From: a virus
Strand: one strand, 5' to 3'
Length of the DNA: 64,000 bases
IMG/VR virus record: IMGVR_UViG_3300047445_000314
Span: 35,207 to 99,206 of that record
How positions within the stretch are numbered: the stretch's first letter is position 1; every line of letters begins with the position of its first letter. Both the position numbers and the translations under genes were made by a program. This document shows, piece by piece, positions 1,959-62,071 of the stretch. A model generated the notes under the pieces. That model ran no database searches. It was not told the origin of the DNA and worked only from the letters and a program-made list of their open reading frames with translations.

Positions 1959-2669
1959 ATGCAGTTTAACCTCACGTCGGTGGTTTACGGCGTATTTACG
2001 GAGATTATCATGATTGGTTTCAGCTTATCCTTCTGGTTGCCGGGTAACTTCAACACCGGCCGCGCGCTACTCAACTTCCTGCTGTGGCTTTTTGCAATTG
2101 ATATCAAATACGACCCCGACCAGCGCAGCTTGATGCTGGTAGCCCGCTTGACCGGGGTCGAGCTGACCGTACGCATCGCCGGGGTAGACCGGGAGCTGGC
2201 ACCCACTATACACGACGAAAACAGGGTCGATGGGCACCAAAAAGCAGCCGAAGAGTTCATCGAAAACATCAAAAAAGGCGCAGAAAGTAGTCAAAAATAC
2301 GCGGAAAGCAGCCAAAACACCGATAAAAGCACCAAAATACGCGTCAGAGCGGTCGATAACGATGGAAATGTGCGCGCCAGCACAGAAACACACGAAAACG
2401 GAGGCAAAGGAGGGCCAGTCACCGATGCACCGAAATGGGCGCGCGAGCTGATGCGCAAGGGTGCGTCGCTGATCCTGATGAACCGCAACATCGTTGACGA
2501 GCAGGAGTACAGCTTCCGACTACCCATCCCCGCCAGCGCGCTGGCCCTGGAGATCGGCTCGGTGGCGGTATTCGGCACCGAAGACAACCATATCCTGTGC
2601 AAGGTCACCGGCTACCGCGAGGAAGAGGATGACGGCAGGCTATATTACTACACGAAAACTAAGCTGTAA
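1959..2669 (+). CDS. hypothetical protein with hydrophobic N-terminus
   Basis: 236-aa ORF; two hydrophobic N-terminal segments. Confidence 0.6.
   Translation: MQFNLTSVVYGVFTEIIMIGFSLSFWLPGNFNTGRALLNFLLWLFAIDIKYDPDQRSLMLVARLTGVELTVRIAGVDRELAPTIHDENRVDGHQKAAEEFIENIKKGAESSQKYAESSQNTDKSTKIRVRAVDNDGNVRASTETHENGGKGGPVTDAPKWARELMRKGASLILMNRNIVDEQEYSFRLPIPASALALEIGSVAVFGTEDNHILCKVTGYREEEDDGRLYYYTKTKL
2092..2107. repeat. dispersed palindromic motif copy 1 (TTGCAATTGATATCAA), in CDS
   Basis: Match to consensus TTGMAATYRATTKCAA. Confidence 0.8.
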
Positions 2670-2678
2670 GGAGGTAGC

Positions 2679-3032
2679 ATGCCTATCACTCACGAAAAAC
2701 CGTTGACGCTAGAACAGATCGAAACGCAGATCGCCTGTCACAGCAAGGTGGTTCAGAAATGGCGCGACCATCTGGATGAGTACCACCGCAACTCCACGAT
2801 AGCCTGCCCGACCTGCAAGCAGGAGCACAAGTTGCGCGACCTCATCTATCTCCAAACCCACTACTACCATGACCCGGTAGGCTGTATCGGTGGGGATTAC
2901 TGGAGCAACGACGAGGGGCAGGCGGACTGTATCACGCCGGGCTGCAAGGCGCGCTGGCGCTTCTACAACAATCCCGATGTCGTTGCTAAGAAGAAGTATT
3001 TCGGAAAAGTAGTGGACGTCTACGACAAGTAG
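2679..3032 (+). CDS. Cys-rich (zinc-finger-like) hypothetical protein
   Basis: RBS AAGGAGG; CPTC...CITPGC. Confidence 0.7.
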   Translation: MPITHEKPLTLEQIETQIACHSKVVQKWRDHLDEYHRNSTIACPTCKQEHKLRDLIYLQTHYYHDPVGCIGGDYWSNDEGQADCITPGCKARWRFYNNPDVVAKKKYFGKVVDVYDK

Positions 3033-3033
3033 T

Positions 3034-3049
3034 TTGCAATCAACTTCAA
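3034..3049. repeat. motif copy 2 (TTGCAATCAACTTCAA), intergenic
   Basis: Between stop 3032 and the RBS of 3059. Confidence 0.9.
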
Positions 3050-3058
3050 AGGAAAACC

Positions 3059-3274
3059 ATGCTGCGACTTACCTACCATAAAAACCGCAAATTCGTGAAG
3101 GTCGGCGACGCCGTGTATGACACCGAAGACCAGCCCGTCACCGTACGCGAGATTGTCCGGCCCGACGCCGTGCAATGGCCCGAAGGGCGGGTAGCCCTGG
3201 AGTGCGTCAAGACCGGCGTGATCGCCTTGTACGATGTCAGCATTATCCGTGCCCACTGGAAAGAAGAAGCATGA
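3059..3274 (+). CDS. hypothetical protein
   Basis: RBS AAGGA; stop overlaps the next start (ATGA). Confidence 0.65.
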   Translation: MLRLTYHKNRKFVKVGDAVYDTEDQPVTVREIVRPDAVQWPEGRVALECVKTGVIALYDVSIIRAHWKEEA

Positions 3275-3830: not shown

Positions 3831-3846
3831 TTGCAGTTAATTGCAA
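3831..3846. repeat. motif copy 3 (TTGCAGTTAATTGCAA), intergenic
   Basis: Immediately before the RBS of 3858. Confidence 0.9.
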
Positions 3847-4193: not shown

Positions 4194-4375
4194 ACATCTC
4201 GATGTACAACCCTGATTTCAACCTGCGCGTCAACTGGACATATCTATGGCGCAAGTTGCATTGCCTGAACGCGATGGATCAATGGACCAACTGGGAACGG
4301 CACTACGAGCGCGACGTCGACGCCGGGTACTGTCTTGATCGCTACAACCTGGAGGATGCATTATGGAAGAATTGA
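4190..4375 (+). CDS. hypothetical protein
   Basis: ATGA-coupled to the previous gene, RBS GGAGG. Confidence 0.55.
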   Translation: MNISMYNPDFNLRVNWTYLWRKLHCLNAMDQWTNWERHYERDVDAGYCLDRYNLEDALWKN

Positions 4376-4716
4376 AATCAATTGCAAACGACGAGGAATT
4401 CACACGGCTTTTTCAAGATCTACTCCTGTATGAATCCCCATTCCAGCTCTCGGTGCGTACAGCACTCCTTACTAACTACATCGACCAGCGCACCGCCAAG
4501 CGCATCGAAGAAGAAGTCGAGCGGTATAGCCACACCCGTCGCTGCGTCGACTTGTCCAAGTTGGAAATCCCGCTGACCTTTTGCGGGGAGGACATGGTGC
4601 GCCTCAAGGACGTCGCGACCTTGTGCCAGGATAGTCCGGATATGTTCGTCCTGGATGATAGCCAGCCGCTCTACAAATACGAGCCGCCCAGGCTGGACCC
4701 GGATTGGGGGGATTGA
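4363..4716 (+). CDS. hypothetical protein
   Basis: RBS GGAGG; 117 aa. Confidence 0.65.
   Translation: MEELKSIANDEEFTRLFQDLLLYESPFQLSVRTALLTNYIDQRTAKRIEEEVERYSHTRRCVDLSKLEIPLTFCGEDMVRLKDVATLCQDSPDMFVLDDSQPLYKYEPPRLDPDWGD
4372..4387. repeat. motif copy 4 (TTGAAATCAATTGCAA), in CDS (LKSIA)
   Basis: Consensus match. Confidence 0.9.
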
Positions 4717-4718: not shown

Positions 4719-4964
4719 ATGGAAAATTTGAAACCAATTGCATATATCACCCAGCGTGAAGGAGTAAGCATGGATATCGACGAGTACATCCGGGGGCTGT
4801 CCGACGAGGAACTGCGCGAGGCGGTTGTCACGGTCAGGGAGGATTTGGCGGAAGCCGCCGCCGACCATAACGGCTCGGAATGGCACGAGGCCTGCTTCGC
4901 GGCGGCCATGATTGTCGCGCTGGAAGTCGAGCGGCGCGGGATGGTTTTGAACGTAATACACTAG
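4719..4964 (+). CDS. hypothetical protein
   Basis: In-frame ATG at 4719; alternative start near 4770. Confidence 0.6.
   Translation: MENLKPIAYITQREGVSMDIDEYIRGLSDEELREAVVTVREDLAEAAADHNGSEWHEACFAAAMIVALEVERRGMVLNVIH
4728..4743. repeat. motif copy 5 (TTGAAACCAATTGCAT)
   Basis: Two mismatches to consensus. Confidence 0.75.
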
Positions 4965-6858: not shown

Positions 6859-7061
6859 TGCCGATGCCTGCCCCGATCACCACCGCCACCTATTGCCGGG
6901 AATGCGCGAAGCGGCTCACATCGCTTTCCGCAGAGACACACTACGTACGTTGCCGTGGCCGCAACCCATACAACCGGGCATGGGAGACCAAAAATATCCC
7001 CATGCCTTTTTGCGATGCAGCATGTTTTAAGAAGTACCAGCGCAGCGCCGACGAAGATTGA
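6855..7061 (+). CDS. small Cys-rich protein
   Basis: CREC...FCDAAC. Confidence 0.55.
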   Translation: MMPMPAPITTATYCRECAKRLTSLSAETHYVRCRGRNPYNRAWETKNIPMPFCDAACFKKYQRSADED

Positions 7062-7073
7062 AATTGATTGCAA
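7058..7073. repeat. motif copy 6 (TTGAAATTGATTGCAA), overlapping a stop codon
   Basis: Exact consensus; supplies the TGA of 6855..7061. Confidence 0.9.
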
Positions 7074-9993: not shown

Positions 9994-11061
9994 ATGCAAT
10001 TCGATCCAACAAAAATCAGAGTATCGAAACACTTCATTCTTTCAGATTTTCTGGGCAACCATAGCGTGTACACGCGCGGCATACCGAACATGCTGGACCC
10101 GCACGACCCGGAACTCCCCCTGAAGATGGCCAACCTGCACGCACTGTGCGACGAGTTCCTGGAACCGTTTTTGGAGCAGGCCGGGCCGTTGTCGATCTCG
10201 TACTCCTACATCACACCGGAGCTGTCCGATGAAATTGTCCACTATCAGGATTCCCGTAAGCCGTCTCATCACCAATTCAACCTTGGCGCGGCGGCAGATA
10301 TTATCTCCCACGAATGGGTCAACGCCGACCCCGAAGACGACAGCGCCACCAGCGCGCCAGTTATGCTGGCTCATGAAATTGCCAGCAGTGGGTACCCTCT
10401 CTCCCGACTCATTACCTATTCGGAGTCGCCGTATCTTTGCGTTGCTGTATCGGCATCCGAAGTTGCGGAAGGCAAGCCGCGTGGCGCGTTCTATGAAAAT
10501 CGCTACACCGGCCACAAAGGCGAGAAGCCTGACTACCGCAAGTACCCGTCACCGGCTGCAAAGCATGGCGCGCTGGCGGCTCTTGTAAAGGAAGGCCTCT
10601 CCCACGGCTGGCGCGGGCAGGGCTACCCCAGTTACCATGGACACGGCCGCCGCCAGTACCATCATATCCGGGTATCCGACTACAGCATGCTCTCCGACTG
10701 GCTATTCGATTTGCAATCAGTTGCAAACGGCGCGAAAAACATCCCGAACGTACAGAATCCCAACTTGATGGAATCCTTCTACCTCGCGGGCGATCTATAC
10801 GACAGCCTGATCAAGGAAGGCGGTCACAACCGCTACTCGATCATCAGCGGGTATGTCGATCACGCCAACCCGTCCTTCGTGAAGGAAAACGACTGGGCGC
10901 GGGGCCAGGGCTGGTTCACCGTAGTCATGCCGGAAGGGGTGGAGGTCGCGCAGGTGATGACGAACATGACCCCTGCCACCGCCACCCAGCCGATCTGGGA
11001 GCACGCCTATATACAGGACATGGGCGAGGGCAAGATGCGGGTCCATTTCCAACAACAATGA
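9994..11061 (+). CDS. peptidase M15-like protein with two tandem domains
   Basis: SKHFILSDFL...LEPF...ISYSY...SHHQFNLGAAADI; second copy RVSDYSMLSDWL...IISGY. Confidence 0.6.
   Translation: MQFDPTKIRVSKHFILSDFLGNHSVYTRGIPNMLDPHDPELPLKMANLHALCDEFLEPFLEQAGPLSISYSYITPELSDEIVHYQDSRKPSHHQFNLGAAADIISHEWVNADPEDDSATSAPVMLAHEIASSGYPLSRLITYSESPYLCVAVSASEVAEGKPRGAFYENRYTGHKGEKPDYRKYPSPAAKHGALAALVKEGLSHGWRGQGYPSYHGHGRRQYHHIRVSDYSMLSDWLFDLQSVANGAKNIPNVQNPNLMESFYLAGDLYDSLIKEGGHNRYSIISGYVDHANPSFVKENDWARGQGWFTVVMPEGVEVAQVMTNMTPATATQPIWEHAYIQDMGEGKMRVHFQQQ
10711..10726. repeat. motif copy 7 (TTGCAATCAGTTGCAA), in CDS (LQSVA)
   Basis: One mismatch. Confidence 0.9.
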
Positions 11062-13348: not shown

Positions 13349-13364
13349 TTGCAATTGATTGCAA
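13349..13364. repeat. motif copy 8 (TTGCAATTGATTGCAA), intergenic
   Basis: Just before a terminator. Confidence 0.9.
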
Positions 13365-16051: not shown

Positions 16052-17551
16052 ATGACCAGCAAACGCATTGCCCGCAGCGCAGCCGGTAACCTCGTCAAGG
16101 TGGACACGCCGGAATTCCTGAGCCTGGTCGGCAAGCCCGCCAACCAGCGCCCGTTCCAGATCATCCGTTCGGCCCGCCCAGCCAAGGCCAAGCGCGGCGA
16201 GGACGCGGTCCTGATGATCACCTTCCCAGATGACTACACCGAGGAAGACGCCGCCGCCGCGCTGGAGAGCTTCGGCATGGAAGGCTACACCCTGGTGGTC
16301 GAGGAGACGCTGTGCTACGCCTACCGCAGCGATTTGCAATCAGTTGCAAAAGTCCAGGAACTGAAGCCCACCACGGTACGCCTGACCTCGGACGGCGTCA
16401 CGGCACACATCGATCCGGCGCAATACCAGCCGAAATCGGGCAGCGAAGGCACCGGCATTGGCGTGTGCCGTTACGAATTCACCAAAACCACGTTCGATAA
16501 TGACAAAATTATTGCGTGGGGTAATCAAAATGGTGTTGACATTTCCGTCGACGCCATCGAGAATTCGTCCAGCGATGTGATTTCGGTTTCCCGCGCGCAA
16601 CTTACCGAGGGTACCGAGGTCCGCAGGATGGAGCTGGAGGCAGGTGTCACCGCCGTCATCGTCCGCACCGATGGCATGCAGATCATCGACGGCGCGATCA
16701 AGATTCCGGACGGCTTTGTCGCCGTGGTCAATGAAGCAGCCTACGGCAACTGGGGCTGGGGTCAGATGGACTTCTACGCAGCCAGCGCCGACCGCGCCTT
16801 CTGCGAAGAGATGGAAGACGCGGCGTGGCGTCTGCGGGATGTGATGAGCAACATCATGTTCTACAACCAGCTTCCGCTGGATACCCGCAAGCAACTGGTG
16901 ACGCGGTGCTTGCAGCAATATGGACAGTTCATCTCGGATGCAATGGATGCGCTGCCCCGTCAAGTTTTGCTGCTCGCCAGTCGCGCAGATTCCATTAAAC
17001 GAAAGGATGTTGACATGACTATCGATGCCGTGAAAGCCCAGCAAGAACTGGACAAGATCGTCGCCAAACGCGCCGCCGATGAAAAAATCGCCCAGGATGC
17101 CGCCGATAAGGCTGCCGCCGAGAAAGCAGAAATCCAGCGCGCCGCTGACGAGAAAATCGCCACCGACAAGGCTGCTGCTGACAAGGCCACCGCCGACGCG
17201 GTCTCGCTGACCATGACCCGCGCCGACCTGGACAAGATGATCGCCGACGCCGTGGCCAAGGCTACCACCGCCGCGCCTGCTGTCACGACCGAAACCGCCG
17301 TACGCAGCGAAGCCACCACCACGACTACCACGACTCCTGCTACCGCAGAAGCTCCGGTCGCCATCACCCGTGCCGATCTGGAAGCCCTGCTGGCTGCCGC
17401 CGTCGCCCCGCTGGCGGAAAAGGTCGGCCGCCTGGAAGGCACCACCATCGTCCGCAGCGCGGATGGCAACGAAACTGCCGCTGTGACCGCTACCGAGAAG
17501 AGAAGTGTCTTCCGTGGCATCTTCAACAATCTGACCGGCACCCCCGAGTAA
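16052..17551 (+). CDS. head maturation/scaffolding protein
   Basis: Between protease and capsid; N-terminal EFLSLVGKPAN; Ala/Lys/Asp-rich coiled-coil C-terminus. Confidence 0.7.
   Translation: MTSKRIARSAAGNLVKVDTPEFLSLVGKPANQRPFQIIRSARPAKAKRGEDAVLMITFPDDYTEEDAAAALESFGMEGYTLVVEETLCYAYRSDLQSVAKVQELKPTTVRLTSDGVTAHIDPAQYQPKSGSEGTGIGVCRYEFTKTTFDNDKIIAWGNQNGVDISVDAIENSSSDVISVSRAQLTEGTEVRRMELEAGVTAVIVRTDGMQIIDGAIKIPDGFVAVVNEAAYGNWGWGQMDFYAASADRAFCEEMEDAAWRLRDVMSNIMFYNQLPLDTRKQLVTRCLQQYGQFISDAMDALPRQVLLLASRADSIKRKDVDMTIDAVKAQQELDKIVAKRAADEKIAQDAADKAAAEKAEIQRAADEKIATDKAAADKATADAVSLTMTRADLDKMIADAVAKATTAAPAVTTETAVRSEATTTTTTTPATAEAPVAITRADLEALLAAAVAPLAEKVGRLEGTTIVRSADGNETAAVTATEKRSVFRGIFNNLTGTPE
16334..16349. 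repeat. motif copy 9 (TTGCAATCAGTTGCAA), in CDS (LQSVA)
   Basis: Identical to copy 7. Confidence 0.9.
17015..17551 (+). CDS. putative nested in-frame scaffold protein
   Basis: Internal RBS AAAGGA and in-frame ATG at 17015, at the start of the coiled-coil region. Confidence 0.5.
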   Translation: MTIDAVKAQQELDKIVAKRAADEKIAQDAADKAAAEKAEIQRAADEKIATDKAAADKATADAVSLTMTRADLDKMIADAVAKATTAAPAVTTETAVRSEATTTTTTTPATAEAPVAITRADLEALLAAAVAPLAEKVGRLEGTTIVRSADGNETAAVTATEKRSVFRGIFNNLTGTPE

Positions 17552-18598: not shown

Positions 18599-18614
18599 TT
18601 GAAATTGATTGCAT
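18599..18614. repeat. motif copy 10 (TTGAAATTGATTGCAT), intergenic
   Basis: Directly after the terminator. Confidence 0.9.
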
Positions 18615-21566: not shown

Positions 21567-21830
21567 ATGACCAGCATCAAAAATGCAATTGATTGCAAAG
21601 AGACCGAATACGTACTGACGGCGGTTGCCCCTTGTCAAGTATCTGGTGTAGACTTCGCCCCAGGTGCCACGATCCGTACACGCAACCAAGGTAGCCGGGA
21701 TTACTTGGTCGACACGGGCGCGGCAGTGGAGGAGAAAGTAGAAAACGTAGACGTACCGGAGACACGACAGGTGTCCGAGGTTGCCGCAACATCACCCACC
21801 GCGCGCGGTCGCATTGGCCGTAGCCGGTAA
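21567..21830 (+). CDS. hypothetical protein
   Basis: RBS AGGAG. Confidence 0.65.
   Translation: MTSIKNAIDCKETEYVLTAVAPCQVSGVDFAPGATIRTRNQGSRDYLVDTGAAVEEKVENVDVPETRQVSEVAATSPTARGRIGRSR
21583..21598. repeat. motif copy 11 (ATGCAATTGATTGCAA), in CDS (NAIDCK)
   Basis: One mismatch. Confidence 0.85.
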
Positions 21831-32619: not shown

Positions 32620-32635
32620 TTGAAATTGATTGCAA
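32620..32635. repeat. motif copy 13 (TTGAAATTGATTGCAA), intergenic
   Basis: Exact consensus. Confidence 0.9.
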
Positions 32636-36445: not shown

Positions 36446-36461
36446 TTGCAATCAATTTCAA
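36446..36461. repeat. motif copy 14 (TTGCAATCAATTTCAA), intergenic
   Basis: Exact consensus. Confidence 0.9.
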
Positions 36462-40280: not shown

Positions 40281-40296
40281 TTGAAATTGATTGCAA
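40281..40296. repeat. motif copy 15 (TTGAAATTGATTGCAA), intergenic
   Basis: Exact consensus, just downstream of TATACT at 40263. Confidence 0.9.
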
Positions 40297-41744: not shown

Positions 41745-41760
41745 TTGCAGTCAAGTGCAA
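41745..41760. repeat. motif copy 16 (TTGCAGTCAAGTGCAA), intergenic
   Basis: Two mismatches; abuts a hairpin at 41760-41794. Confidence 0.75.
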
Positions 41761-42423: not shown

Positions 42424-45035
42424 TCGCTTACCCGACCGCCTTGGCTGCGCGCCAGCGCCCTCCACCGGGCAGTCGCGCATTTCGTCAGACGACAAGTGGG
42501 GGACTGTGGCTGCCTAGCAGCCACGGCGGGGTAACGGATGCCATGGGCAACAGCCCTCCGGCCAAAGTGATCGGCGGCGTCACGTATGTGCAGGGGCCAT
42601 TCGGTGCCCCGGCGCTGAAATTCGATAACGCAACGGGCTACGTCGATTGCGGACTAAACGGCAACACGACGTTCAACTGGGCGACACCTAATGCATTCCT
42701 GTATCGTCCGCGCACCTTTTGGGCATGGGTGCGGCGACCGTCGTCCTCCAGCGTGGGGCCAGTCTTTTCAAAGGGTAACAATTCACCCAACTCCGGCTGG
42801 AGCATGTCGGTTACGACGACAGGGTTGCGCTTTGGCTGGGTGGGTTCGAGCAACGGTGCGCACACTACCTCGAACGTCCTGAGCGTAGGGGATTGGCACC
42901 TTATCGCCATCGCCTGGGACGGCGGCGCGGGGGCTATCTCCGACCTTAGCGGCACACCATTTATCGGCGGCATGTCCATCTATCTGGACGGTGTATGGCA
43001 GGGCGCTCCGAACACAGGCTCTTGGGAGGCCAATGGCTCGCAGAACAGCCTTGACCAATTCAATCTGTGGATAGGGCAGGCCCAATATGTCGGCGGCTCA
43101 GGCGGCGCAATCAGCCAATGGGCCGACCTGGAGATTGACCATTGGGGTCTCGACTATCGTGTCTATAGCCCTGAAGAAATCGCGGACCTGTATCGACGGC
43201 CTTTCAGGTCCTTCGCGCCTAGTCCTATTTTCAGAAAACTAATCCCTACGTCTGTAAACTACACGGACTCAGTTACCGAAGTCTCCACGGCCAGTGACAG
43301 TAGCGGCGCAACGGTGGCATTCGCGGTCAGCGCCACTGAGGCGGCCACGGCCAGCGACAGCGATGCAGGTACGATGGCAGCCACGGTGTCCTCGTCCGAG
43401 ACTGGCACGGCCACAGAGTCCAGCGCCAGTACGCTGGCTGCGGTCGGTAGCGTAACGGAGAGTGCAAGTGCAGCCGACACCGCTGACAACACTGCCGTGC
43501 AACTTGCCAATGCCGCCGAACTAGGCAATGCGCTCGACATCGAGACGGCCAGCTATATCGGCGTCGTCATCGACTCGTCCGAGTCGGTGGACTCCAGTGA
43601 GCTAACGAGCGCTACTGCTGTCTCGCTAGTGGCTATAGCGGAAAGTGCAGCGGCGCTGGATGCTGGCAGCGCTACTATTGCCACCTCGGTAGCCATGGTG
43701 GAAGCCGCCTCGGCAGGCGTGCAATCAATTGCAAACGCCGAGTATCTGATCGCAGAATCCGCCAGTGCCTCAGACAGCATCAATTCCCATAACGCCGCGA
43801 TTAGCAGCGCGAGCGAGTCTGCGAACGCCATGGCGGACGCATCGGCGACGGGCGGGGCGGTAGTCTCTGTGGTAGAAACCAATGCTGCCTCCACGACCAG
43901 TGTTGCAGGTAAGACCACCCGCGCGTTCGTCACGGAAGCCGCGTCGGCTGCCACGACGCAGGGTGCAACCAAAACCACCTCCGCCGCGAATGTGGCTACC
44001 GCCACTGCCAGCGACGATGACAACGCCACGACCAAGCTCAAGCTCGCTAAGAAAAGCATTGACGAGTCGGCGAACGCCACCACCACCCAGGCACTCGGTC
44101 CGTACACCACCACCGCCAACCGTGATGAGGTGGCCAGCTCCGCCGTGGTCTCCAGCGCCAGCTATATCGGCCTGGTACAGGTCACCAACGAGGCGACGGT
44201 AGCTGATAGCGTCGAGGATGTCACTGCGCAGTTCCACGTAGATGGCGAGGGCGAGTCCGCCAGTGCTACCGACGACCTGGATGCCGTTATCGACAGCCAG
44301 TTCTCCGTGGCCGAGCCTACGGTGGCCGGTGATCAGTTCGATGCCATCTCGGATACGAATGTCGGGCAGGAGGACGCAGCCAGTGCAGTCGATACAGCCT
44401 CGCTGATCTGGGTAGGTGCGGCGGAGGCCGTCGAAGCCGCGTTTGCTATCGACAGCGCCAACGGTGTCGTAGTCGTACAGCCTGCCAGCTTCCATATCGA
44501 AAGCGCGCAGGCGTTGGATAGCGTCAGTGCTGAGCGTATCGTCAATACTGAGATCAACGAGCCGACCGACAATCTGACGGAAGCACTGGACACCAGCGAC
44601 CGGACTATTGCAACCTTCGCTGATATCGAGGAAATCGACCCGAACGCGGCGGACCAGTCGGCTACCTTGCTCGGTATCGGCCGTGTGACGGAAGCGGCCA
44701 ATTTGACGGACGCCTGTGACTGCGTCGTGATATTTGCCGCCATGCAGGAAGAGTTCGCGGAGGCTGACGACATCGACATTGCCTTTGGCTTGCTGGTAGC
44801 GCTGGAGACAGAGCATGCCAGCGCGATCGATAGCCTGTTGTCGACGGTAGGCATTAGCAGGCAGATCACCGAACATGCGGTAGCCGTGGATAGCGCGCAG
44901 GGCTATCTCAAGACCGCCGCGCCCGCGATACGGGTGTGGGAGGTTCCAGGACAGGACCGTAATCTGGTACTATCCGGCAGCGACCGGACATGGGAAGTGC
45001 CGGGGCAGGATCGCGCGTGGGACATACCCGATTAA
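42420..45035 (+). CDS. LamG/concanavalin-like domain fibre protein with long repeat stalk
   Basis: ALKFD...FWAWV...WHLIAIAWDG...IYLDG...YSPEEIADLY, then ~19-aa ExxxAxD repeats. Confidence 0.75.
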   Translation: MIAYPTALAARQRPPPGSRAFRQTTSGGLWLPSSHGGVTDAMGNSPPAKVIGGVTYVQGPFGAPALKFDNATGYVDCGLNGNTTFNWATPNAFLYRPRTFWAWVRRPSSSSVGPVFSKGNNSPNSGWSMSVTTTGLRFGWVGSSNGAHTTSNVLSVGDWHLIAIAWDGGAGAISDLSGTPFIGGMSIYLDGVWQGAPNTGSWEANGSQNSLDQFNLWIGQAQYVGGSGGAISQWADLEIDHWGLDYRVYSPEEIADLYRRPFRSFAPSPIFRKLIPTSVNYTDSVTEVSTASDSSGATVAFAVSATEAATASDSDAGTMAATVSSSETGTATESSASTLAAVGSVTESASAADTADNTAVQLANAAELGNALDIETASYIGVVIDSSESVDSSELTSATAVSLVAIAESAAALDAGSATIATSVAMVEAASAGVQSIANAEYLIAESASASDSINSHNAAISSASESANAMADASATGGAVVSVVETNAASTTSVAGKTTRAFVTEAASAATTQGATKTTSAANVATATASDDDNATTKLKLAKKSIDESANATTTQALGPYTTTANRDEVASSAVVSSASYIGLVQVTNEATVADSVEDVTAQFHVDGEGESASATDDLDAVIDSQFSVAEPTVAGDQFDAISDTNVGQEDAASAVDTASLIWVGAAEAVEAAFAIDSANGVVVVQPASFHIESAQALDSVSAERIVNTEINEPTDNLTEALDTSDRTIATFADIEEIDPNAADQSATLLGIGRVTEAANLTDACDCVVIFAAMQEEFAEADDIDIAFGLLVALETEHASAIDSLLSTVGISRQITEHAVAVDSAQGYLKTAAPAIRVWEVPGQDRNLVLSGSDRTWEVPGQDRAWDIPD
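43719..43734. repeat. motif copy 17 (GTGCAATCAATTGCAA), in CDS (VQSIA)
   Basis: One mismatch. Confidence 0.85.
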
Positions 45036-45399: not shown

Positions 45400-45415
45400 T
45401 TGCAATTAATTACAA
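45400..45415. repeat. motif copy 18 (TTGCAATTAATTACAA), intergenic
   Basis: One mismatch; just upstream of the lysis promoter -35. Confidence 0.85.
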
Positions 45416-48292: not shown

Positions 48293-48308
48293 TTGAGATT
48301 GATTGCAA
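48293..48308. repeat. motif copy 19 (TTGAGATTGATTGCAA), intergenic
   Basis: Just downstream of the predicted transcription start. Confidence 0.85.
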
Positions 48309-51084: not shown

Positions 51085-51100
51085 TTGCAATCAATTTCAA
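51085..51100. repeat. motif copy 20 (TTGCAATCAATTTCAA), intergenic
   Basis: Exact consensus, adjacent to RBS. Confidence 0.9.
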
Positions 51101-51114: not shown

Positions 51115-51330
51115 ATGGAAATCGAACTGAAATTCGCCGACTCAAAAATGCTCAACGCGCTGGGTTACGACGAAGACACACAGACCATGGCGGTACGCTT
51201 CAAGAATGGTGACGTATGGCACTATTCGCCAGTACCTGCGGAGGCCTTCGAGACCATCCGCGACGCCCATTCGGTCGGGCAGGCGTTCCTGGCGATCCGC
51301 GACCAGTACCTGGCTACCAAGCAGGAATAA
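51115..51330 (+). CDS. KTSC domain protein
   Basis: SKMLNALGYD...VRFKNG.VWHY..VP...AHSVGQAF...IRDQY. Confidence 0.85.
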   Translation: MEIELKFADSKMLNALGYDEDTQTMAVRFKNGDVWHYSPVPAEAFETIRDAHSVGQAFLAIRDQYLATKQE

Positions 51331-51332
51331 TC

Positions 51333-51674: not shown

Positions 51675-51752
51675 CCCGCATACTGAAGGCGCGGCCGGTC
51701 CACCAACACGCTATAATAAGTCATCACCACCTCACATATATAGGAGCAACCC

Positions 51753-52196
51753 ATGTCACATACAACGAGCATAAAGGGTATCCAGATCATGGATATCGTC
51801 GCACTGGAGGCCGCCGTCAAGGAACTGGCCGCGTCGGGTTTGAAAATCAGCCTGGTCAAGGACGCCACCCCGCGCGCCTTCTACAGCAATCAAGCCGGGA
51901 TGGGAAAAGCCGACTATGTCGTCAAGCTGCTCGACGCCAGTTACGATATCGGCCTGTACAAGCAGGAGGACGGCTCGTACCAGCCGCGCACCGACTTCTT
52001 CGGTGGCAGCGTCGTCAAGGTCCTGGGCGCGCAGGCTTCCAAGAAAGAAAATGCTGAGCAAGCCAAGCTCGGCAAGCTGATGCAGATGTATGGCATCCAT
52101 GCCGCCACCATGAAGGCCAAGAAACAGGGCCTGACGGTACGCCGCGTCACCGGCAACGACGGCGTGGTCAAGTTGACGGTAGCCGGGTTCGCATAA
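51753..52196 (+). CDS. DUF1257 / Ycf35-like protein
   Basis: MSHTTSI...ALEAAVKEL...YDIGL...DGSY...DFF...LMQMYG...G.VKLTV. Confidence 0.75.
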   Translation: MSHTTSIKGIQIMDIVALEAAVKELAASGLKISLVKDATPRAFYSNQAGMGKADYVVKLLDASYDIGLYKQEDGSYQPRTDFFGGSVVKVLGAQASKKENAEQAKLGKLMQMYGIHAATMKAKKQGLTVRRVTGNDGVVKLTVAGFA

Positions 52197-52207
52197 GGAG
52201 CAACATC

Positions 52208-52399
52208 ATGAAGACAGTTGAGATCACGATCCAACCAGACGGCGAAGTCAAAGTCGACGCCATTGGCTTTGCCGGGGTCGGCTGCAAGAAAGCCACCACC
52301 GAATTGATTGAAGTCCTGGCGGGCGGCGGGTCGACCGACACCAAGCCCAAACCGGATTTCTACGCCACCAACCCGGTCGGTACCAAGATCAAGGGATAG
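52208..52399 (+). CDS. DUF2997-like protein
   Basis: VEITIQPDGEVKVDAIGFAGVGCKKAT...LAG...KPDFY. Confidence 0.8.
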   Translation: MKTVEITIQPDGEVKVDAIGFAGVGCKKATTELIEVLAGGGSTDTKPKPDFYATNPVGTKIKG

Positions 52400-52401
52400 C
52401 C

Positions 52402-52761
52402 ATGACCAGTCACGAAATCAGTGAGCGCACCCGCGCCGCCCTGAACCGTCTCTGCAAGTGGCGGTCGGTATTTGCCGGGTGGCAATTGGGTACCCGCGAC
52501 CAGGAAGACCCGGAATGTCAGGCGGTCAAGGACCACCGCGAATTATCCATGCTTCTGCGCGCGGAGGTCAGCGCGCTGGTCGCCACCCTGGTCCAGAAGG
52601 GTGTGTTCACGGTGGACGAGTTCAACACCAATCTGGAAAAAGAGGCAGTCACCATGGATGTGGAAAACGAACAGCGCTTCCCCGGCTTCAGTTCAATCGC
52701 GCAAGGCATATCCATGTCGATGCCGGAGGCGGCAGAGACGATGAAGAACTGGCCCAAGTAG
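52402..52761 (+). CDS. hypothetical protein
   Basis: Packed + strand ORF. Confidence 0.65.
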   Translation: MTSHEISERTRAALNRLCKWRSVFAGWQLGTRDQEDPECQAVKDHRELSMLLRAEVSALVATLVQKGVFTVDEFNTNLEKEAVTMDVENEQRFPGFSSIAQGISMSMPEAAETMKNWPK

Positions 52762-52779
52762 GGATACACAGGAGGTAGC

Positions 52780-53154
52780 ATGGCGCGACGCTTACGGCTA
52801 GGACGGGGTACGGAAAAGGATAGGACGCTTATAGACCCTCCCGCGCCGAAGGAACCACCTGAATGGCCGCACCCGATACCTCCCGACCCTCCCGATGCAC
52901 GGCGGCGGCATCAATGGCCGCCTGAACGTATAGCCACTCCCGCTGGTAGCTGCTTGCATGGCGAGGTGGCTATAGAGCGGAGATATGTGGAGTATGCAGA
53001 GTCTGGTCAGGTAACCCAGCGCATAGTGACCGGCCAGGAGATCGTCATCACCTTGCGCGGGGAGGGTAATCATATCGCCATCCTGGAAGATGCCTTGCGC
53101 CAGCTTCGTGATAACCCGGACAGTTTTAATTTCACGGTACGCGCATCCTTATAG
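52780..53154 (+). CDS. hypothetical Pro-rich protein
   Basis: RBS AGGAGG. Confidence 0.6.
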   Translation: MARRLRLGRGTEKDRTLIDPPAPKEPPEWPHPIPPDPPDARRRHQWPPERIATPAGSCLHGEVAIERRYVEYAESGQVTQRIVTGQEIVITLRGEGNHIAILEDALRQLRDNPDSFNFTVRASL

Positions 53155-53163
53155 GAGAGACCC

Positions 53164-53376
53164 ATGTGTTGGCCTGATGATTACCAGTATCTGCGCCTGC
53201 GCCGCCATAACGGTTGCCAGGACGTCCCACGCCCGCCCGACCACGCCAGCGGCCCCTTCATGACGTACGAGAACCGTACCTGGATGAGCGGCTTGATTGT
53301 CACCCGCCGCGACGGTGCGAAGGCTTGTATCTATACACCCCTACCTGGCACCCCCACGCTCGATTGGGACGAGTAA
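53164..53376 (+). CDS. hypothetical protein
   Basis: RBS AGGAG. Confidence 0.55.
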   Translation: MCWPDDYQYLRLRRHNGCQDVPRPPDHASGPFMTYENRTWMSGLIVTRRDGAKACIYTPLPGTPTLDWDE

Positions 53377-53407
53377 GATAGGGGTAGGACTACACGAGGG
53401 ATGGGTT

Positions 53408-53423
53408 TTGCAATCAATTTCAA
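53408..53423. repeat. motif copy 21 (TTGCAATCAATTTCAA), intergenic
   Basis: Exact consensus, adjacent to RBS. Confidence 0.9.
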
Positions 53424-53435
53424 CCGGAGAGAATA

Positions 53436-53780
53436 ATGAAGACACGTTTTACAACAATCGACTTCGCGGAGGACGGCACAGTGGAGGCCATGAACCGGGA
53501 CGAATTCAACATAGGCTTCCTGGGCAAGCAGAGCATCCAACGCGCCAGCGAGATCAAATTCAACGAGGCAACCCAAAGCTGGAATATTTGCTTGCCGGAT
53601 GACGATGACCGATGCTGGGTAGCAATACCGGAAGCTACCGGCTTTGCCTCGTATAACGTGGCGCGCGATGTCGAGGTGTTCTGGTTGGAGACCGCGCGCC
53701 GAGTCGGCGTCAACCCTACCAGTATGGAGGGTATCCGGATACTCCAGGCAGCCAAGGACCTGAGCCGCGTCCTGGCATAG
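53436..53780 (+). CDS. hypothetical protein, possibly of a family accompanying Ycf46/DUF1257/DUF2997 loci
   Basis: DGTVEA...LGKQSIQRASEI...W...F...A..VEVFWL pattern (recalled, not searched). Confidence 0.55.
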   Translation: MKTRFTTIDFAEDGTVEAMNRDEFNIGFLGKQSIQRASEIKFNEATQSWNICLPDDDDRCWVAIPEATGFASYNVARDVEVFWLETARRVGVNPTSMEGIRILQAAKDLSRVLA

Positions 53781-54395: not shown

Positions 54396-55781
54396 ATGAA
54401 ACATGCGTTATCTTACCACGATTATCGTGCGTTGTGCTCATTCGCTGAGCAAAAAGATGAAAATATCTGCAAACAATATAGCAGCACGATGGATGCGCTG
54501 TTCACCTATTGGACCAAAACACTCGGCCACGACAAGATTTGCGTACTTGGCTTCGTCCTGTCCAGGACGTTGAAGTATGGCAAAGCGGTTGCCGCGATCC
54601 CGTTCCCGGCCTTCCTGGGTGGCGTGGTCAGCGAGGAGTACCAGCGCTCGATCACCAGCGCCCTGAATATTTCCAAGAATACACTTCGCAACGTCCTGAA
54701 GGAATTGGTGGAGGATGGTTTCCTGCACGCATTTTTCCCGGAGAAGCGGCGCGGAGTGGTAGACAACTTCACCCGGTTTTTTGAGATTGATTTCAAAAAG
54801 TTGCAACGCCTGACGTCGAAAGGTAGCAGCATCATGGGCATATTGCGTACTCCGAAATCCGCGAAATCGCCTGTGGCGGGTAGGGAAAATAGTAAGGAAA
54901 ACACCCCTGAAAAGTCCGTTTTACGACTCCCAAAATTGGGAGGCCTAAGTAGTATTCATAAGATACCTAAAGGTATCTATACCGCATCGCCTGCGGCTCG
55001 CGGGACCGGCCTGGAAGATGAACAACCAGAAACAAATATCGAACAACCTGTCCCTACCGTTCGTCGCTTGACCCGTACCCGCCCTGCGGCTGCTACCCCG
55101 ATCGCTACCCAGCCTACCCCTGCACCGCTATCCGGCGTCGCCAGCCTGATCCAGCGCGTCCACCAGATGCAGCAAGAGTTTCGCGACCGGCGTGCCGCCA
55201 AGGTGCGCTCCGCCAAAGGCGCTACCTCCGCCGCGCTGCAACAGCAGCAGGTGCAAGCCATGCTCGATAGCGCGATGGCCAAGTATTTCCCCAACTCACC
55301 ACGCATGGCGATCACCGGTAAAGCCTTCGGTGCCATGCGGAATCATCTGAAGCGCTCCGCGCCGGAGGACCTGGACGATTTCATCAATTGGACGATCCGT
55401 AGCTGGTCCGAGCTGGCGCAGCAGCACTCCCGCAGCGCCCGTAAAAACTTGGGAGACAGCACGAAAGCGAAGTTCGAGCCGTTGCCGTTTGCACCCAATT
55501 TCAATTCCTTCGGCTACCGCCTGCCCTACTTCCTGGCCTGCTACGTCAGCCGTAAGGCCGAGACCGCCGCGCTCGGTTCCCGTGATACCCGGCAGGATGA
55601 GTTGCTGGAGCGTACCAAACGCGCATTGGCCCACACCCGGCAGGAGATCGTCAGCCTGCGCGCGGTGGCGCAGAAAGCCCAGCAGGAGGCACGCGAGCGT
55701 CGCTCTGCTACCACGCGTATCCATGAGACAAGTTATGATAACGATATCCCCGCATGGGATGATTCCGAGGAGAATGAATAA
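54396..55781 (+). CDS. putative replication initiator (N-terminal winged helix)
   Basis: LNISKNTLRNVLKELVEDGFL; precedes loader-like and helicase genes. Confidence 0.55.
   Translation: MKHALSYHDYRALCSFAEQKDENICKQYSSTMDALFTYWTKTLGHDKICVLGFVLSRTLKYGKAVAAIPFPAFLGGVVSEEYQRSITSALNISKNTLRNVLKELVEDGFLHAFFPEKRRGVVDNFTRFFEIDFKKLQRLTSKGSSIMGILRTPKSAKSPVAGRENSKENTPEKSVLRLPKLGGLSSIHKIPKGIYTASPAARGTGLEDEQPETNIEQPVPTVRRLTRTRPAAATPIATQPTPAPLSGVASLIQRVHQMQQEFRDRRAAKVRSAKGATSAALQQQQVQAMLDSAMAKYFPNSPRMAITGKAFGAMRNHLKRSAPEDLDDFINWTIRSWSELAQQHSRSARKNLGDSTKAKFEPLPFAPNFNSFGYRLPYFLACYVSRKAETAALGSRDTRQDELLERTKRALAHTRQEIVSLRAVAQKAQQEARERRSATTRIHETSYDNDIPAWDDSEENE
54781..54796. repeat. motif copy 22 (TTGAGATTGATTTCAA), in CDS (FEIDFK)
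   Basis: One mismatch. Confidence 0.85.
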
Positions 55782-57837: not shown

Positions 57838-58064
57838 TGGATATCTACAGCGATCTGCGCATTCCGTTCAGCACCGCCGTATGGTTGCGCACCCACAAAT
57901 TTAGTCCTCTCGCCGTGGCCGTATCGCGCCGTTTGAAGTTGATTGCAAATGCTCGGGTAGAGATAGCATCGCTTGAATGCCAGCTCGATATTCACGACAA
58001 AGAATTGCAGAAGCTACTGGACGAAGCAAACACAAAGCTGGAGGAGTCGGCCAATGGCTATTAA
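57837..58064 (+). CDS. hypothetical coiled-coil protein
   Basis: TAATG coupling to the previous gene. Confidence 0.55.
   Translation: MDIYSDLRIPFSTAVWLRTHKFSPLAVAVSRRLKLIANARVEIASLECQLDIHDKELQKLLDEANTKLEESANGY
57933..57948. repeat. motif copy 23 (TTGAAGTTGATTGCAA), in CDS (LKLIA)
   Basis: One mismatch. Confidence 0.85.
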
Positions 58065-60852: not shown

Positions 60853-61070
60853 CATCACGCAAACGATTCAAAAAGGCACTGGCGCGGATTATCCGCATGG
60901 ACCGCGACCTGTTCCTCGCCCCGCGCTACAAACCTAACACGCATGCCAGGATTGTCGCGGCGATGGCGGCAATCGGTAAAGGCAGGGTAATGGCTGGCCG
61001 AAAGGATGAGGCAATCGCCGCAATGAACGCCGCCCGCTATGCTCGCCACCAAACTTCGATACCGGACTAA
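60849..61070 (+). CDS. small basic protein
   Basis: ATGA coupling, RBS GGAG. Confidence 0.55.
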   Translation: MTSRKRFKKALARIIRMDRDLFLAPRYKPNTHARIVAAMAAIGKGRVMAGRKDEAIAAMNAARYARHQTSIPD

Positions 61071-61072
61071 CT

Positions 61073-61219
61073 ATGATTACCGTAACCTATCAATATCCAG
61101 ACATGGAGCGGGAGGCGGAGAAGGAATTCACCGACCCGGCGCTGGCACACAAGCTTGTCCAGGATGTGACCGACAATGACGGCTGGGCCGAAGTTCTCTG
61201 GGACGGGGAGGAAGATTAA
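61073..61219 (+). CDS. small acidic protein (48 aa)
   Basis: Not in the track; fills the gap exactly and is TAATG-coupled to the next gene. Confidence 0.5.
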   Translation: MITVTYQYPDMEREAEKEFTDPALAHKLVQDVTDNDGWAEVLWDGEED

Positions 61220-61500
61220 TGACACCTAACGAAATGACTGCCATGCGGAAGAAGTTTGAGGAGCAGGATGTCAGTGGCCATCCCGACTATACGTACAGCA
61301 TCGCCGCGCGCCGCTATGTCTGCAATTTTACCCAAGGGCGCTGGTTGAACTGGCAAACGGCGTGGGTGGCCGGGAAAAACTACAAACCGGGGCAGGACAG
61401 GCAGGAAACCCCCGCCCGCATCGTACAATCGACCGCACCACCGCCCGCCGCGACCACGACCGCCAACCCCGCTCGCCTGACGCGCACGCGCCCAGCATAG
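61219..61500 (+). CDS. hypothetical protein
   Basis: RBS GGAGG; tail RLTRTRPA. Confidence 0.6.
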   Translation: MTPNEMTAMRKKFEEQDVSGHPDYTYSIAARRYVCNFTQGRWLNWQTAWVAGKNYKPGQDRQETPARIVQSTAPPPAATTTANPARLTRTRPA

Positions 61501-61537
61501 CGCGCTATACTAGAACCTACACCATAAAGGAGCCATC

Positions 61538-62071
61538 ATGGCAGCCGTACTCCGCCGCACCCCACCCGCGCCAGCGGTAGAAGCACCGCGCCGCATGATG
61601 CGCGTCTCGCGCCCCGGCCTGGTTGATGCCAAGTCCGTGGCCGCGCAGGAGAAGATCGAAAGCACGCTCAAAAACCATTTGCAATTGATTGCATATAACG
61701 CCAACCGCGCCGAGTATTTGCGCGCGTCAATCGCGGCCGAGTTGCTGTCGCTGGAAGAAGACACCAAGCGCCACGCAGCCATCTGCGAGAAAGCGCTGAA
61801 GGATGGCAAGCTGAAAGGCTGGACTACCGCCGACTGGGAATGCAAGTTCGAGGACACGCTAATCCGTGGCTCGCGCGAACCCAAGCTGGATGAAGTCTTG
61901 CTGGCGTTGGGCGAGGAGAACTTCCTGAAGGTGGTCAAGGTACAGATCACCGAGCTGAAGGAGTTCATGACGGACAACGAGATCAACGCAGTCTCGACCG
62001 TGGTACCCGCCACGCCGGGGCCAACCGTATTCAAGCATGGTCCGGTCGGGGTGAAGAAAGGCAAGAAATGA
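61538..62071 (+). CDS. hypothetical coiled-coil protein
   Basis: RBS AAGGAG. Confidence 0.7.
   Translation: MAAVLRRTPPAPAVEAPRRMMRVSRPGLVDAKSVAAQEKIESTLKNHLQLIAYNANRAEYLRASIAAELLSLEEDTKRHAAICEKALKDGKLKGWTTADWECKFEDTLIRGSREPKLDEVLLALGEENFLKVVKVQITELKEFMTDNEINAVSTVVPATPGPTVFKHGPVGVKKGKK
61679..61694. repeat. motif copy 24 (TTGCAATTGATTGCAT), in CDS (LQLIA)
   Basis: One mismatch. Confidence 0.85.

What the first reader, a model, noticed from the sequence alone, without database searches (positions are those of the whole stretch)
2092..61694. Genome-wide lattice of 24 AT-rich palindromic sites, (T)TTGMAATYRATTKCAA(A): candidate undescribed DNA-binding or genome-organising system
Seen: copies of a 16-bp quasi-palindrome start at 2092, 3034, 3831, 4372, 4728, 7058, 10711, 13349, 16334, 18599, 21583, 26874, 32620, 36446, 40281, 41745, 43719, 45400, 48293, 51085, 53408, 54781, 57933 and 61679. 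Each has 0-2 mismatches, and most are flanked by T and A to give 18 bp. The motif is about 75% AT in GC-rich DNA and amounts to two TTGCAA-like hexamers 10 bp (one helical turn) apart. Mean spacing is about 2.6 kb and the largest gap about 5.7 kb. Sites occur in early, head, tail, lysis and replication modules alike; 13 are at gene junctions and 11 inside CDSs. The central dinucleotide is CA in 11, TG in 11, TA in 2 and never CG, so there is no orientation bias although all genes are on one strand. Known: mycobacteriophage stoperators are dispersed but asymmetric and co-oriented with transcription; parS, matS and SlmA/Noc sites are dispersed palindromes with architectural roles. This sequence matches none I know. 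Inference: a dimeric protein binds along the whole genome, acting as a global repressor/roadblock or to compact, partition, shield or traffic phage DNA.
Basis: partly seen in the sequence, partly recalled or inferred. Interest (0 to 1): 0.92.

Follow-up and report, generated by a model that had tools for sequence, protein, structure and literature searches.

The report
Evenly spaced palindrome lattice, phage
This roughly 100-kb phage, like a wide family of related phages of Pseudomonas, Aeromonas, Rhizobium and Agrobacterium, keeps one 16-18 bp DNA palindrome about every 2-3 kb along its genome, most likely as docking sites for a paired DNA-binding protein that I could not identify.

Summary
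All 24 listed sites exist, and one more clear copy lies at 55489. The window has 26 matches at up to 2 mismatches, against 0.12 expected. The 99-kb record has 43 sites.

About 70% of sites lie in the 10% of DNA that is non-coding. The 11 in-gene copies exceed a synonymous-codon background (1.2). Spacing is far more even than chance (CV 0.56, largest gap 5.7 kb).

The two arms never co-vary, and single half-sites are not enriched. This fits a two-fold symmetric protein reading duplex DNA, not a hairpin.

The lattice is a clade trait. Pseudomonas phage SM1, Rhizobium phages L338C and TM16, Agrobacterium JP1, Aeromonas HJ05 and several uncultured phages carry their own spelling of TGCAA-N3-4-TTGCA. 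The four genomes tested beside this one show the same even spacing.

The reader protein is not identified. No DNA-binding family was found in this record, but the record is cut exactly where all nine relatives checked encode ParB-like proteins. The function is inferred, not shown.

Other agents of this scan noted the same lattice family on other genomes. I found no paper describing it. The closest printed cases are the Cluster O mycobacteriophage dyad repeats and the KorB/OB system.

The parts
2092..2107 (.). palindrome copy TTGCAATTGATATCAA (1 mismatch), inside CDS 1959-2669
3034..3049 (.). copy TTGCAATCAACTTCAA; 1 nt after a stop codon, directly followed by AGGA and a start codon 9 nt on
3831..3846 (.). 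copy TTGCAGTTAATTGCAA (TA centre), at a gene junction
4372..4387 (.). exact copy TTGAAATCAATTGCAA, lying across the start of ORF 4363-4716
4728..4743 (.). copy TTGAAACCAATTGCAT (2 mismatches), at a gene junction
7058..7073 (.). exact copy TTGAAATTGATTGCAA, overlaps a stop codon; next start 16 nt on
10711..10726 (.). copy TTGCAATCAGTTGCAA inside CDS 9994-11061 (endolysin-like PHROG)
13349..13364 (.). exact, fully symmetric arms TTGCAATTGATTGCAA; 13 nt after a stop codon, followed by a terminator hairpin, upstream of the HNH and portal genes
16334..16349 (.). copy inside the 499-aa head gene. Relatives L012 and L008 have a site at the same place with their own spelling. SM1 has one in the same alignment columns but in another codon phase.
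18599..18614 (.). copy directly after the terminator that follows the major capsid gene; next start 24 nt on
21583..21598 (.). copy 38 nt after the strong terminator at 21516-21545
26874..26889 (.). copy inside the 1819-aa tape-measure gene, 4.1 kb into it
32620..32635 (.). exact copy at a gene junction
36446..36461 (.). exact copy TTGCAATCAATTTCAA at a junction; next start 12 nt on
40281..40296 (.). exact copy at a junction
41745..41760 (.). copy (2 mismatches) 4 nt after a stop codon, followed by a terminator-like hairpin
43719..43734 (.). copy inside the roughly 830-870-aa tail gene
45400..45415 (.). copy (TA centre) at a junction; a promoter-like TTGCAT-17-TAAAAT starts 4 nt downstream
48293..48308 (.). 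copy in the 249-nt gap before the AAA+ ATPase gene (a weak overlapping copy lies at 48303)
51085..51100 (.). exact copy at a junction, directly followed by a ribosome-binding site
53408..53423 (.). exact copy at a junction; next start 12 nt on
54781..54796 (.). copy inside the 461-aa gene upstream of the helicase genes
57933..57948 (.). copy just upstream of the DNA polymerase gene (inside a doubtful small ORF)
61679..61694 (.). copy inside the 177-aa ORF 61538-62071
54396..55781 (+). weak in-window candidate reader: a 461-aa protein in a conserved position before the helicase genes, with faint winged-helix signals at residues 76-156. Speculative.

Best explanation
The palindromes are docking sites on double-stranded DNA for a two-fold symmetric DNA-binding protein, most likely encoded by the phage. 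Selection keeps the sites as a genome-wide row. They sit by preference at gene junctions and at the ends of transcription units. Where genes are long they are written into coding DNA, so that no stretch is more than about 3 kb from a site.

The row is inherited across a large clade of 80-120 kb phages whose genes all lie on one strand. The outer TGCAA...TTGCA is kept, and the inner bases drift with lineage, as expected if sites and reader evolve together.

The most likely way of working (inferred, not shown) resembles KorB on plasmid RK2. The protein would load at the sites and act over a limited distance on either side. Its effect would be to gate or silence transcription at unit boundaries, or to mark and organise the whole phage chromosome.

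The best candidate reader is the clade's small ParB/Noc/KorB-like protein. Its gene lies in the block that is missing from this cut record.
For: Shown:
- Excess over chance and over a codon-aware background.
- 29 of 43 sites are fully non-coding, against 10% non-coding DNA (P 3e-19). The same enrichment holds in SM1, G001 and L338C.
- Gap CV is 0.44-0.60 with largest gaps of 3.6-6.5 kb in the five genomes tested.
- There is no arm covariation in three genomes, and lone half-sites are not enriched.
- Flanks are not conserved beyond 1-2 nt, so the site is not part of a fixed promoter.
- Exact TGCAA-N3-4-TTGCA counts are 60, 31, 16, 33 and 17 in L338C, SM1, HJ05, JP1 and TM16. The reversed control pattern gives 0-2.
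- Sites at the same places are re-spelled and change the encoded protein, for example LQSVAK to LKSISN.
- In L338C at least 14 sites sit 7-12 bp upstream of the -35 element of a conserved early promoter, often in the order terminator, palindrome, promoter.
- In the window, five sites (13349, 18599, 21583, 41745, 48293) lie within 90 bp of a + strand terminator, two found by the scan and three read by eye.

For a ParB-like reader:
- ParB_N genes are present in all nine relatives checked: SM1, G001, G002, G003, G004, L338C, HJ05, JP1 and TM16.
- The AlphaFold model of the small one matches ParB, Noc and KorB over 134-234 columns (E 8e-6 to 1e-3).
- KorB slides up to 1.5 kb from its palindromic sites (PMC11790492).
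Against: - No protein was shown to bind. Pfam scans of 164 small ORFs found no DNA-binding family in this record.
- This record has no ParB_N gene. The cut explains that, but it also means the candidate cannot be examined here.
- The relatives' small ParB-like protein has GHTR where ParB has the CTP-binding GERR motif. It shows no recognisable ParB recognition helix by sequence.
- Its model is poor at residues 177-220.
- Its partner is a fusion of ParB_N to a methyltransferase, so the pair may serve another purpose.
- The co-occurrence of lattice and ParB_N lies within one clade, so the nine cases are not independent.
- In this phage the sites have no constant position relative to promoters.
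- Half-site type and centre base are correlated, which a simple homodimer does not predict.
Confidence: 0.55

Rival explanations
1. An ordinary operator set. A small phage repressor or activator that Pfam does not recognise (helix-turn-helix or ribbon-helix-helix) binds near promoters and switches early, middle and late transcription. The even spacing would be a by-product of the sizes of transcription units.
For: - The L338C sites sit at a fixed 7-12 bp upstream of early promoters.
- In this phage several sites lie 4-28 nt after -10-like hexamers.
- Sites are enriched at junctions.
- Small phage regulators often escape Pfam.
Against: - Many sites fill stop-to-ribosome-binding-site gaps with no room for a promoter.
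- About a quarter lie deep inside long genes, including the tape-measure gene.
- Spacing is more even than any of 20,000 draws from real junctions.
- Sigma-70-like promoters are not above shuffles in the window.
- No regulator family is shared by the clade. Arc occurs only in SM1, and HTH_3, RHH_1 and LacI are absent.
Confidence: 0.2
2. The sites serve a host transcription factor. The family TGnAAnCGnTTnCA has the layout of LacI/PurR/CytR-type operators. The phage would recruit or soak up a host regulator.
For: The G001 (TTGCAATCGATTGCAA) and SM1 (GTGCAARCGYTTGCAC) spellings fit the even palindrome with central CG that is typical of that family (my own knowledge, not tested). No reader was found in the phage record.
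Against: - The row is inherited with the phage lineage across alpha- and gammaproteobacterial hosts, while the inner bases differ between phages of similar GC content.
- This phage avoids the central CG (2 of 43 sites).
- Soaking up a factor needs no even spacing.
- No host genome could be searched.
Confidence: 0.08
3. The sites are signals for a DNA transaction rather than for regulation. Possibilities are nicking or cutting by a symmetric nuclease (HNH or RuvC-like), recombination hot spots, or dispersed sites for the replication starter protein, possibly the 461-aa protein.
For: - The clade encodes HNH, RuvC-like and resolvase genes.
- In the four genomes checked (own, SM1, G001, L338C) a palindrome lies inside the 461-aa gene next to the helicase genes, as origins often do.
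- That protein shows faint winged-helix signals.
- Even spacing would suit a process that works along the whole DNA.
Against: - Cutting both strands at 43 symmetric sites would fragment the genome.
- Primases read short single-stranded words, yet lone half-sites are not enriched.
- The model of the 461-aa protein is poor and matched nothing.
- One origin suffices for 100 kb.
Confidence: 0.1
4. A nucleic-acid structure: an RNA hairpin (terminator, processing site or stabiliser) or a DNA cruciform.
For: The sites are palindromic, intergenic, and some lie next to terminators. In SM1 the 6-bp stem would stay intact.
Against: - In this phage 28 of 43 sites mismatch at pair 4-13 in mid-stem, and only 1 of 43 is fully paired.
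- Compensated changes are 2 against 69 broken pairs.
- The sites have a T before and an A after, the reverse of a terminator.
- The stems are short and AU-rich.
Confidence: 0.03
5. Chance, codon bias, or a small selfish repeat that spread by copying.
For: In this phage one asymmetric 16-mer (TTGCAATCAATTTCAA) dominates in both orientations, and centre and half-site type are linked (11:1 and 10:3). That could reflect copying.
Against: - Shuffles give 0.12, and codon-aware shuffles give 1.2 against 11 observed.
- Flanks are not conserved.
- Places are kept across distant phages while the spelling changes.
- Spacing is even in the five genomes tested.
Confidence: 0.02

Closest known systems
17-bp dyad repeats of Cluster O mycobacteriophages (TGTTCGG-N3-CCGAACA; Cresawn et al. 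2015, PMC4351075)
   Same: More than 30 copies of one dyad-symmetric site lie throughout a phage genome, both between and inside genes. There is no meaningful orientation, and most copies are not near promoters. The authors also infer a dimeric protein and leave the function open.
   Different: - The phages, host and sequence are unrelated.
- The Cluster O arms are invariant, while here the half-sites are degenerate.
- Even spacing and re-spelling across a deep clade were not reported there.
KorB and its 12 OB palindromes on IncP plasmid RK2 (PMC11790492)
   Same: A palindrome of 13-16 bp is scattered over a replicon. Some copies lie just upstream of promoters and some far from any. The lattice phages encode ParB/Noc/KorB-like proteins.
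   Different: - There are 43 or more sites rather than 12, on a seemingly lytic phage (no integrase was noticed here, and SM1's close relative UF_RH6 is reported as lytic).
- No KorA-like partner is known.
- The candidate protein has GHTR instead of GERR, and binding is untested.
- This record lacks the gene.
Stoperators of Cluster A mycobacteriophages, and the dispersed repressor sites of phiC31 (conserved inverted repeats) and P1 (C1 operators). From my own knowledge; not read here.
   Same: Tens of copies of one protein-binding site are spread over a phage genome, mostly in short gaps between genes, and act on transcription genome-wide.
   Different: - Stoperators and C1 operators are asymmetric, and stoperators are co-oriented with transcription. 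Here the site is symmetric and unoriented (21:17).
No integrase or repressor was recognised here.
LacI/GalR-family operators (PurR box, CytR sites, cre). From my own knowledge.
   Same: An even 14-16 bp palindrome of the form TGnAAnCGnTTnCA, with a pyrimidine-purine step at the centre.
   Different: No LacI-type domain is found in the phage genomes. The centre in this phage is CA/TG, not CG. Those operators are a handful per regulon, not a row.

Membership tests
ParB-parS / KorB-OB type system | Palindromic site of about 13-16 bp, read as a dyad | tested here: met
   A 16-18 bp dyad. The arms do not co-vary, and lone half-sites are not enriched.
ParB-parS / KorB-OB type system | A ParB-family protein encoded on the same replicon | tested here: inconclusive
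   PF02195 is absent from this record. However, the record starts inside the terminase gene and lacks the block where all nine relatives checked carry ParB_N genes.
ParB-parS / KorB-OB type system | CTP-binding GERRxRA motif in the N-terminal domain | tested here: not met
   The relatives' small protein has an invariant GHTR, and the large one has GHQR.
ParB-parS / KorB-OB type system | Helix-turn-helix DNA-binding domain after the N-terminal domain | tested here: inconclusive
   Foldseek aligns 134-234 columns to ParB, Noc and KorB. The model has pLDDT below 50 at 177-220, and no recognition helix is visible by sequence.
ParB-parS / KorB-OB type system | Specific binding and spreading or sliding from the site | not testable with these tools
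   Needs EMSA, ChIP-seq or single-molecule work.
Mycobacteriophage stoperators | Asymmetric site co-oriented with transcription | tested here: not met
   The site is symmetric. The centre is CA 21 against TG 17 on the single coding strand.
Mycobacteriophage stoperators | Read by the immunity repressor of a temperate phage | tested here: inconclusive
   No repressor-type family was found in 164 small ORFs, and HTH_3 is absent. Integrase was not searched for directly, and the record is incomplete.
Cluster O-type dispersed dyad repeats (a described kind, not a homologous family) | Tens of copies of one dyad-symmetric repeat throughout a phage genome, between and inside genes, with no orientation | tested here: met
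   compared with PMC4351075. The sequence and the phages are unrelated.
LacI/GalR-family operator | Even palindrome with a conserved central CG | tested here: not met
   The centre is CG in 2 of 43 sites here. It is met in G001 (30 of 37) and in SM1.
LacI/GalR-family operator | A LacI-type helix-turn-helix protein as reader | tested here: not met
   PF00356 is absent from this record, SM1 and G001. A host-encoded reader was not tested.
Intrinsic terminator or structured RNA | Base-paired stem kept by compensating changes, followed by a U tract | tested here: not met
   2 compensated against 69 broken pairs. The site is flanked by a T before and an A after.

The most novel reading that the evidence does not exclude
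A whole clade of seemingly lytic phages coats or marks its entire chromosome from a row of 30-70 evenly spaced palindromes. This would be a chromosome-wide use of a segregation-type protein, for global gating of transcription, for telling phage DNA from host DNA, or for organising DNA for replication and packaging.
Probability: 0.3. Interest if true: 0.85.

Novelty: new variant of a known kind. Interest (0 to 1): 0.68.

Why it matters
If the row is a set of docking sites for one phage protein, it is a simple cis-code that governs a whole 100-kb chromosome, and three things follow.

- It is shared by many phages of Pseudomonas, Aeromonas, Rhizobium and Agrobacterium, some of them cultured. The question can therefore go to the bench at once.
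- The even spacing puts a number on it: no base lies more than about 3 kb from a site. That is the range over which ParB-type clamps are known to act. It offers a test of whether such proteins are used by lytic phages for something other than segregation.
- The sites constrain protein sequences and mark unit boundaries. That matters for annotating and engineering these phages, several of which are being considered for therapy against P. aeruginosa.

Tried and rejected
- **Near-identical phage records:** none in GenBank phages.
- **Literature:** no paper holds the motif strings. The single hit is an unrelated shRNA oligo. Searches for Samunavirus and L338C found nothing on repeats. A search for DUF1257 with DUF2997 was not informative.
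- **Reader protein:**
  - Pfam on 30 chosen proteins and then on all 164 small ORFs, with PHROGs and NCBIfam on subsets, found no DNA-binding family.
  - Six-frame searches found no LacI, HTH_3 or RHH_1. Arc occurs only in SM1.
  - A bZIP hit is a coiled coil in the lysis cassette.
  - ESM Atlas look-ups of the conserved 114-aa and 208-aa proteins gave nothing usable.
  - The AlphaFold model of the 461-aa protein was poor (pLDDT 60) and matched nothing in the PDB.
- **Promoter idea:**
  - The flanks carry no information beyond 1-2 nt.
  - My own sigma-70 scan found 10 strong candidates, only one beside a site.
  - The consensus scan is at shuffle level.
  - The GTGGGCAC-N9-TATACT motif is not tied to the sites.
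- **Other ideas rejected:**
  - Sigma-54, FNR/CRP, IHF and Fis sites were compared by eye from my own knowledge and rejected on spacing.
  - Nucleation of H-NS/MvaT was rejected because SM1's version is GC-rich.
  - Hairpin.
  - Primase half-sites.
- **Not possible:**
  - Relatives cannot be drawn for a virus record.
- No host genome could be reached.
- **Exact 16-mer in viral contigs:** mostly single chance hits, but this search found G002.


Full report
**What the window is.** The window is bases 35207-99206 of a 99,206-bp IMG/VR virus record with 58% G+C. All credible genes lie on the + strand; my crude caller finds about 185 ORFs and about 10% non-coding DNA. It is a tailed phage, distantly related to Pseudomonas phage SM1 (Samunavirus): portal identity is 52% and DNA polymerase 56%. 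It shares gene order with Rhizobium phage L338C.

The record is cut. Its first ORF is the C-terminal third of the large terminase, and it ends just after the primase. Relatives carry about 13 kb between these two points, encoding RecA, RuvC, an exonuclease and two ParB_N genes.

**The observation.**
- All 24 listed sites are there. TTGMAATYRATTKCAA has 8 exact matches (0.00 expected) and 26 at up to 2 mismatches (0.12 expected).
- The extras are 55489 and a weak overlapping copy at 48303. The whole record has 43 sites.
- The centre counts, mean spacing and largest gap are as stated. Two CG-centred sites exist outside the window.
- Information content covers 18 bp, including a T before and an A after. 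Nothing is conserved further out.

**Is it more than composition or coding?**
- 29 of 43 sites are fully non-coding, against 10% non-coding DNA (P 3e-19).
- The 11 in-gene copies compare with a mean of 1.2 (maximum 3) after synonymous-codon shuffling.
- The same junction enrichment holds in SM1 (13 of 32), G001 (15 of 37) and L338C (32 of 55).

**Even spacing.**
- The CV of the gaps is 0.56, against about 1.0 for random placement (P about 5e-5). It is lower than in all 20,000 draws that place the same numbers of sites on real junctions and coding DNA. The largest gap is 5.7 kb, against 10-11 kb expected.
- The same holds in SM1 (CV 0.55), G001 (0.44), L338C (0.55) and G002 (0.60). Largest gaps are 3.6-6.5 kb.
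- In-gene sites sit in long genes, including the tape-measure gene, a tail gene and the 499-aa head gene.

**Duplex site or hairpin?**
- Deviations from the consensus in one arm are almost never matched in the other. This phage has 2 compensated changes against 69 broken and 11 wobble pairs. G001 has 0, 49 and 9. SM1 has 4, 50 and 14.
- In this phage pair 4-13 is mismatched in 28 of 43 sites.
- Lone half-sites are at background level.
- Orientation on the coding strand is unbiased (CA 21, TG 17).

This is what a symmetric protein reading duplex DNA gives. It is not what an RNA hairpin or a DNA cruciform gives.

One complication remains. Half-site type and centre base are linked (TTGCAATC with AATTTCAA; 11:1 and 10:3). 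The 'both weak' combination is rare, and the CG centre is avoided (AATCGATT occurs 0 times here and 25 times in G001).

**A clade trait.**
- SM1 carries about 30 copies of RTGCAARCGYTTGCAC.
- IMG/VR relatives carry TTGCAATCGATTGCAA, TTGAAATCAATTTCAA or TTGCAGTTGATTTCAA.
- L338C carries 60 copies of TGCAAC-N1-2-GTTGCA.
- Exact TGCAA-N3-4-TTGCA occurs 31, 16, 33 and 17 times in SM1, Aeromonas HJ05, Agrobacterium JP1 and Rhizobium TM16. The reversed control gives 0-2.
- G002, a complete 103-kb genome with terminal repeats, uses this phage's spelling 73 times.

What is kept is TGCAA...TTGCA.

Places are kept too. Each phage has a site just before the HNH and portal genes and another in the first third of the 499-aa head gene. 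In own, L012 and L008 the latter is the same position with a changed spelling and changed amino acids. In SM1, G001 and L338C it is shifted or in another codon phase. That pattern points to selection for 'a site hereabouts' rather than simple descent.

**Context.**
- In this phage many sites fill the whole gap between a stop codon and the next ribosome-binding site.
- Several lie 4-28 nt after a -10-like hexamer.
- Five window sites (13349, 18599, 21583, 41745, 48293) lie within 90 bp of a + strand terminator, two found by the scan and three read by eye.
- Sigma-70-type promoters are not above shuffle level.
- In L338C at least 14 sites lie 7-12 bp upstream of the -35 element of a conserved early promoter, often in the order terminator, palindrome, promoter.

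The sites therefore mark unit boundaries, but with no constant geometry across the clade. That fits a protein acting over a distance better than a classical operator at a fixed position.

**Who reads it?** Nothing in this record scores as a DNA-binding family. LacI, HTH_3 and RHH_1 are absent, and Arc is found only in SM1. The four-way conserved genes are these:
- terminase, portal, protease and capsid;
- a block of AAA+ ATPase, a 208-aa protein, DUF1257, DUF2997 and a 114-aa protein;
- DnaB, DNA polymerase and primase.

The 461-aa protein before the helicase genes shows only faint winged-helix signals, and its model was uninformative.

All nine relatives checked encode ParB_N proteins: a small one of about 235-330 aa and, in most, a fusion of ParB_N to a methyltransferase of about 500 aa. 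The small one is 45-75% identical across the Pseudomonas-type clade members aligned and 23% to L338C's. Its model matches ParB, Noc and KorB beyond the N-terminal domain. However, it has GHTR in place of GERR, and no recognition helix is visible by sequence. In this record the block that would hold it is missing. It is the best candidate, not an identification.

**Reading and rivals.**
- I put 0.55 on a phage-encoded symmetric docking protein with a genome-wide, distance-limited role.
- The rivals are an ordinary operator set (0.2), a DNA-transaction signal (0.1), a host LacI-type factor (0.08), a nucleic-acid structure (0.03), and chance or a selfish repeat (0.02).

**Known or new?** The kind is in print for Cluster O mycobacteriophages, without even spacing and without a function (PMC4351075). 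KorB/OB is the closest mechanism (PMC11790492). I found no paper on this clade's lattice.

Other agents of this scan have reported the same TGCAA-N4-TTGCA family on other genomes, and several proposed a ParB/KorB-like reader. I treated these as leads and tested only presence and fold.

Noticed in passing
window 63301-64000 and G000:C1:1-561 (L020:1-561): The record is cut. It begins inside the large terminase gene and ends just after the primase. Relatives hold about 13 kb there (RecA, RuvC, exonuclease, two ParB_N genes). The '100% complete' estimate is therefore too high.
   Followed up: partly
window 48374-53780: A conserved five-gene block (AAA+ ATPase of the Cdc48/FtsH type, a 208-aa protein, DUF1257, DUF2997, a 114-aa protein) is present in this phage, SM1, G001 and L338C. 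Its function is unknown.
   Followed up: partly
L020 about 7490, 10500, 17670; L021 about 6545, 10480 (G000 25545, 29480): The motif ACCTTGAAAGG lies just upstream of the start codons of several early genes. The 8-mer ACCTTGAA occurs 13 times against 1.1 expected. It may be a start-associated sequence.
   Followed up: no
G000:C1 31825, 33232, 33278, 33822 (also 19354); L021: GTGGGCAC-N9-TATACT occurs on the + strand only, clustered in non-coding DNA. It looks like a promoter and is not tied to the palindromes.
   Followed up: partly
L032/L033 (Rhizobium phage L338C), e.g. 42307, 50626, 59697, 61232, 71933-79734, 85356, 89037: At least 14 near-identical early promoters (TTGACAAAGGATCGGTTC..GTTAGATT) each lie 7-12 bp after a palindrome. 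The centre of those palindromes is mostly TT on the top strand (10 against 2 AA).
   Followed up: partly
L005/L006 (Pseudomonas phage SM1): GTGCAC occurs once against 22 expected, which looks like restriction-site avoidance. In this phage ATCGAT is 29 against 50 expected, and AATCGATT is absent.
   Followed up: no
L154-L159 (G002, IMGVR_UViG_3300046528_000120): A complete 103,099-bp relative with a 127-bp terminal repeat has 73 sites in this phage's spelling. Unlike this phage, it shows a strand bias of the centre (CA 47, TG 21; P 0.002).
   Followed up: partly
L031:1498-2988 (G001) and L154:9211-10755 (G002): The larger ParB_N protein is fused to a class I SAM methyltransferase domain (PF13489 in many homologues). 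It is 59-79% identical among the 120 best of 415 homologues found.
   Followed up: partly
window 45472-45963: A 164-aa ORF in the lysis region has a leucine-zipper-like coiled coil (weak bZIP_1 hit). It is probably a spanin-type protein, not a DNA binder.
   Followed up: partly
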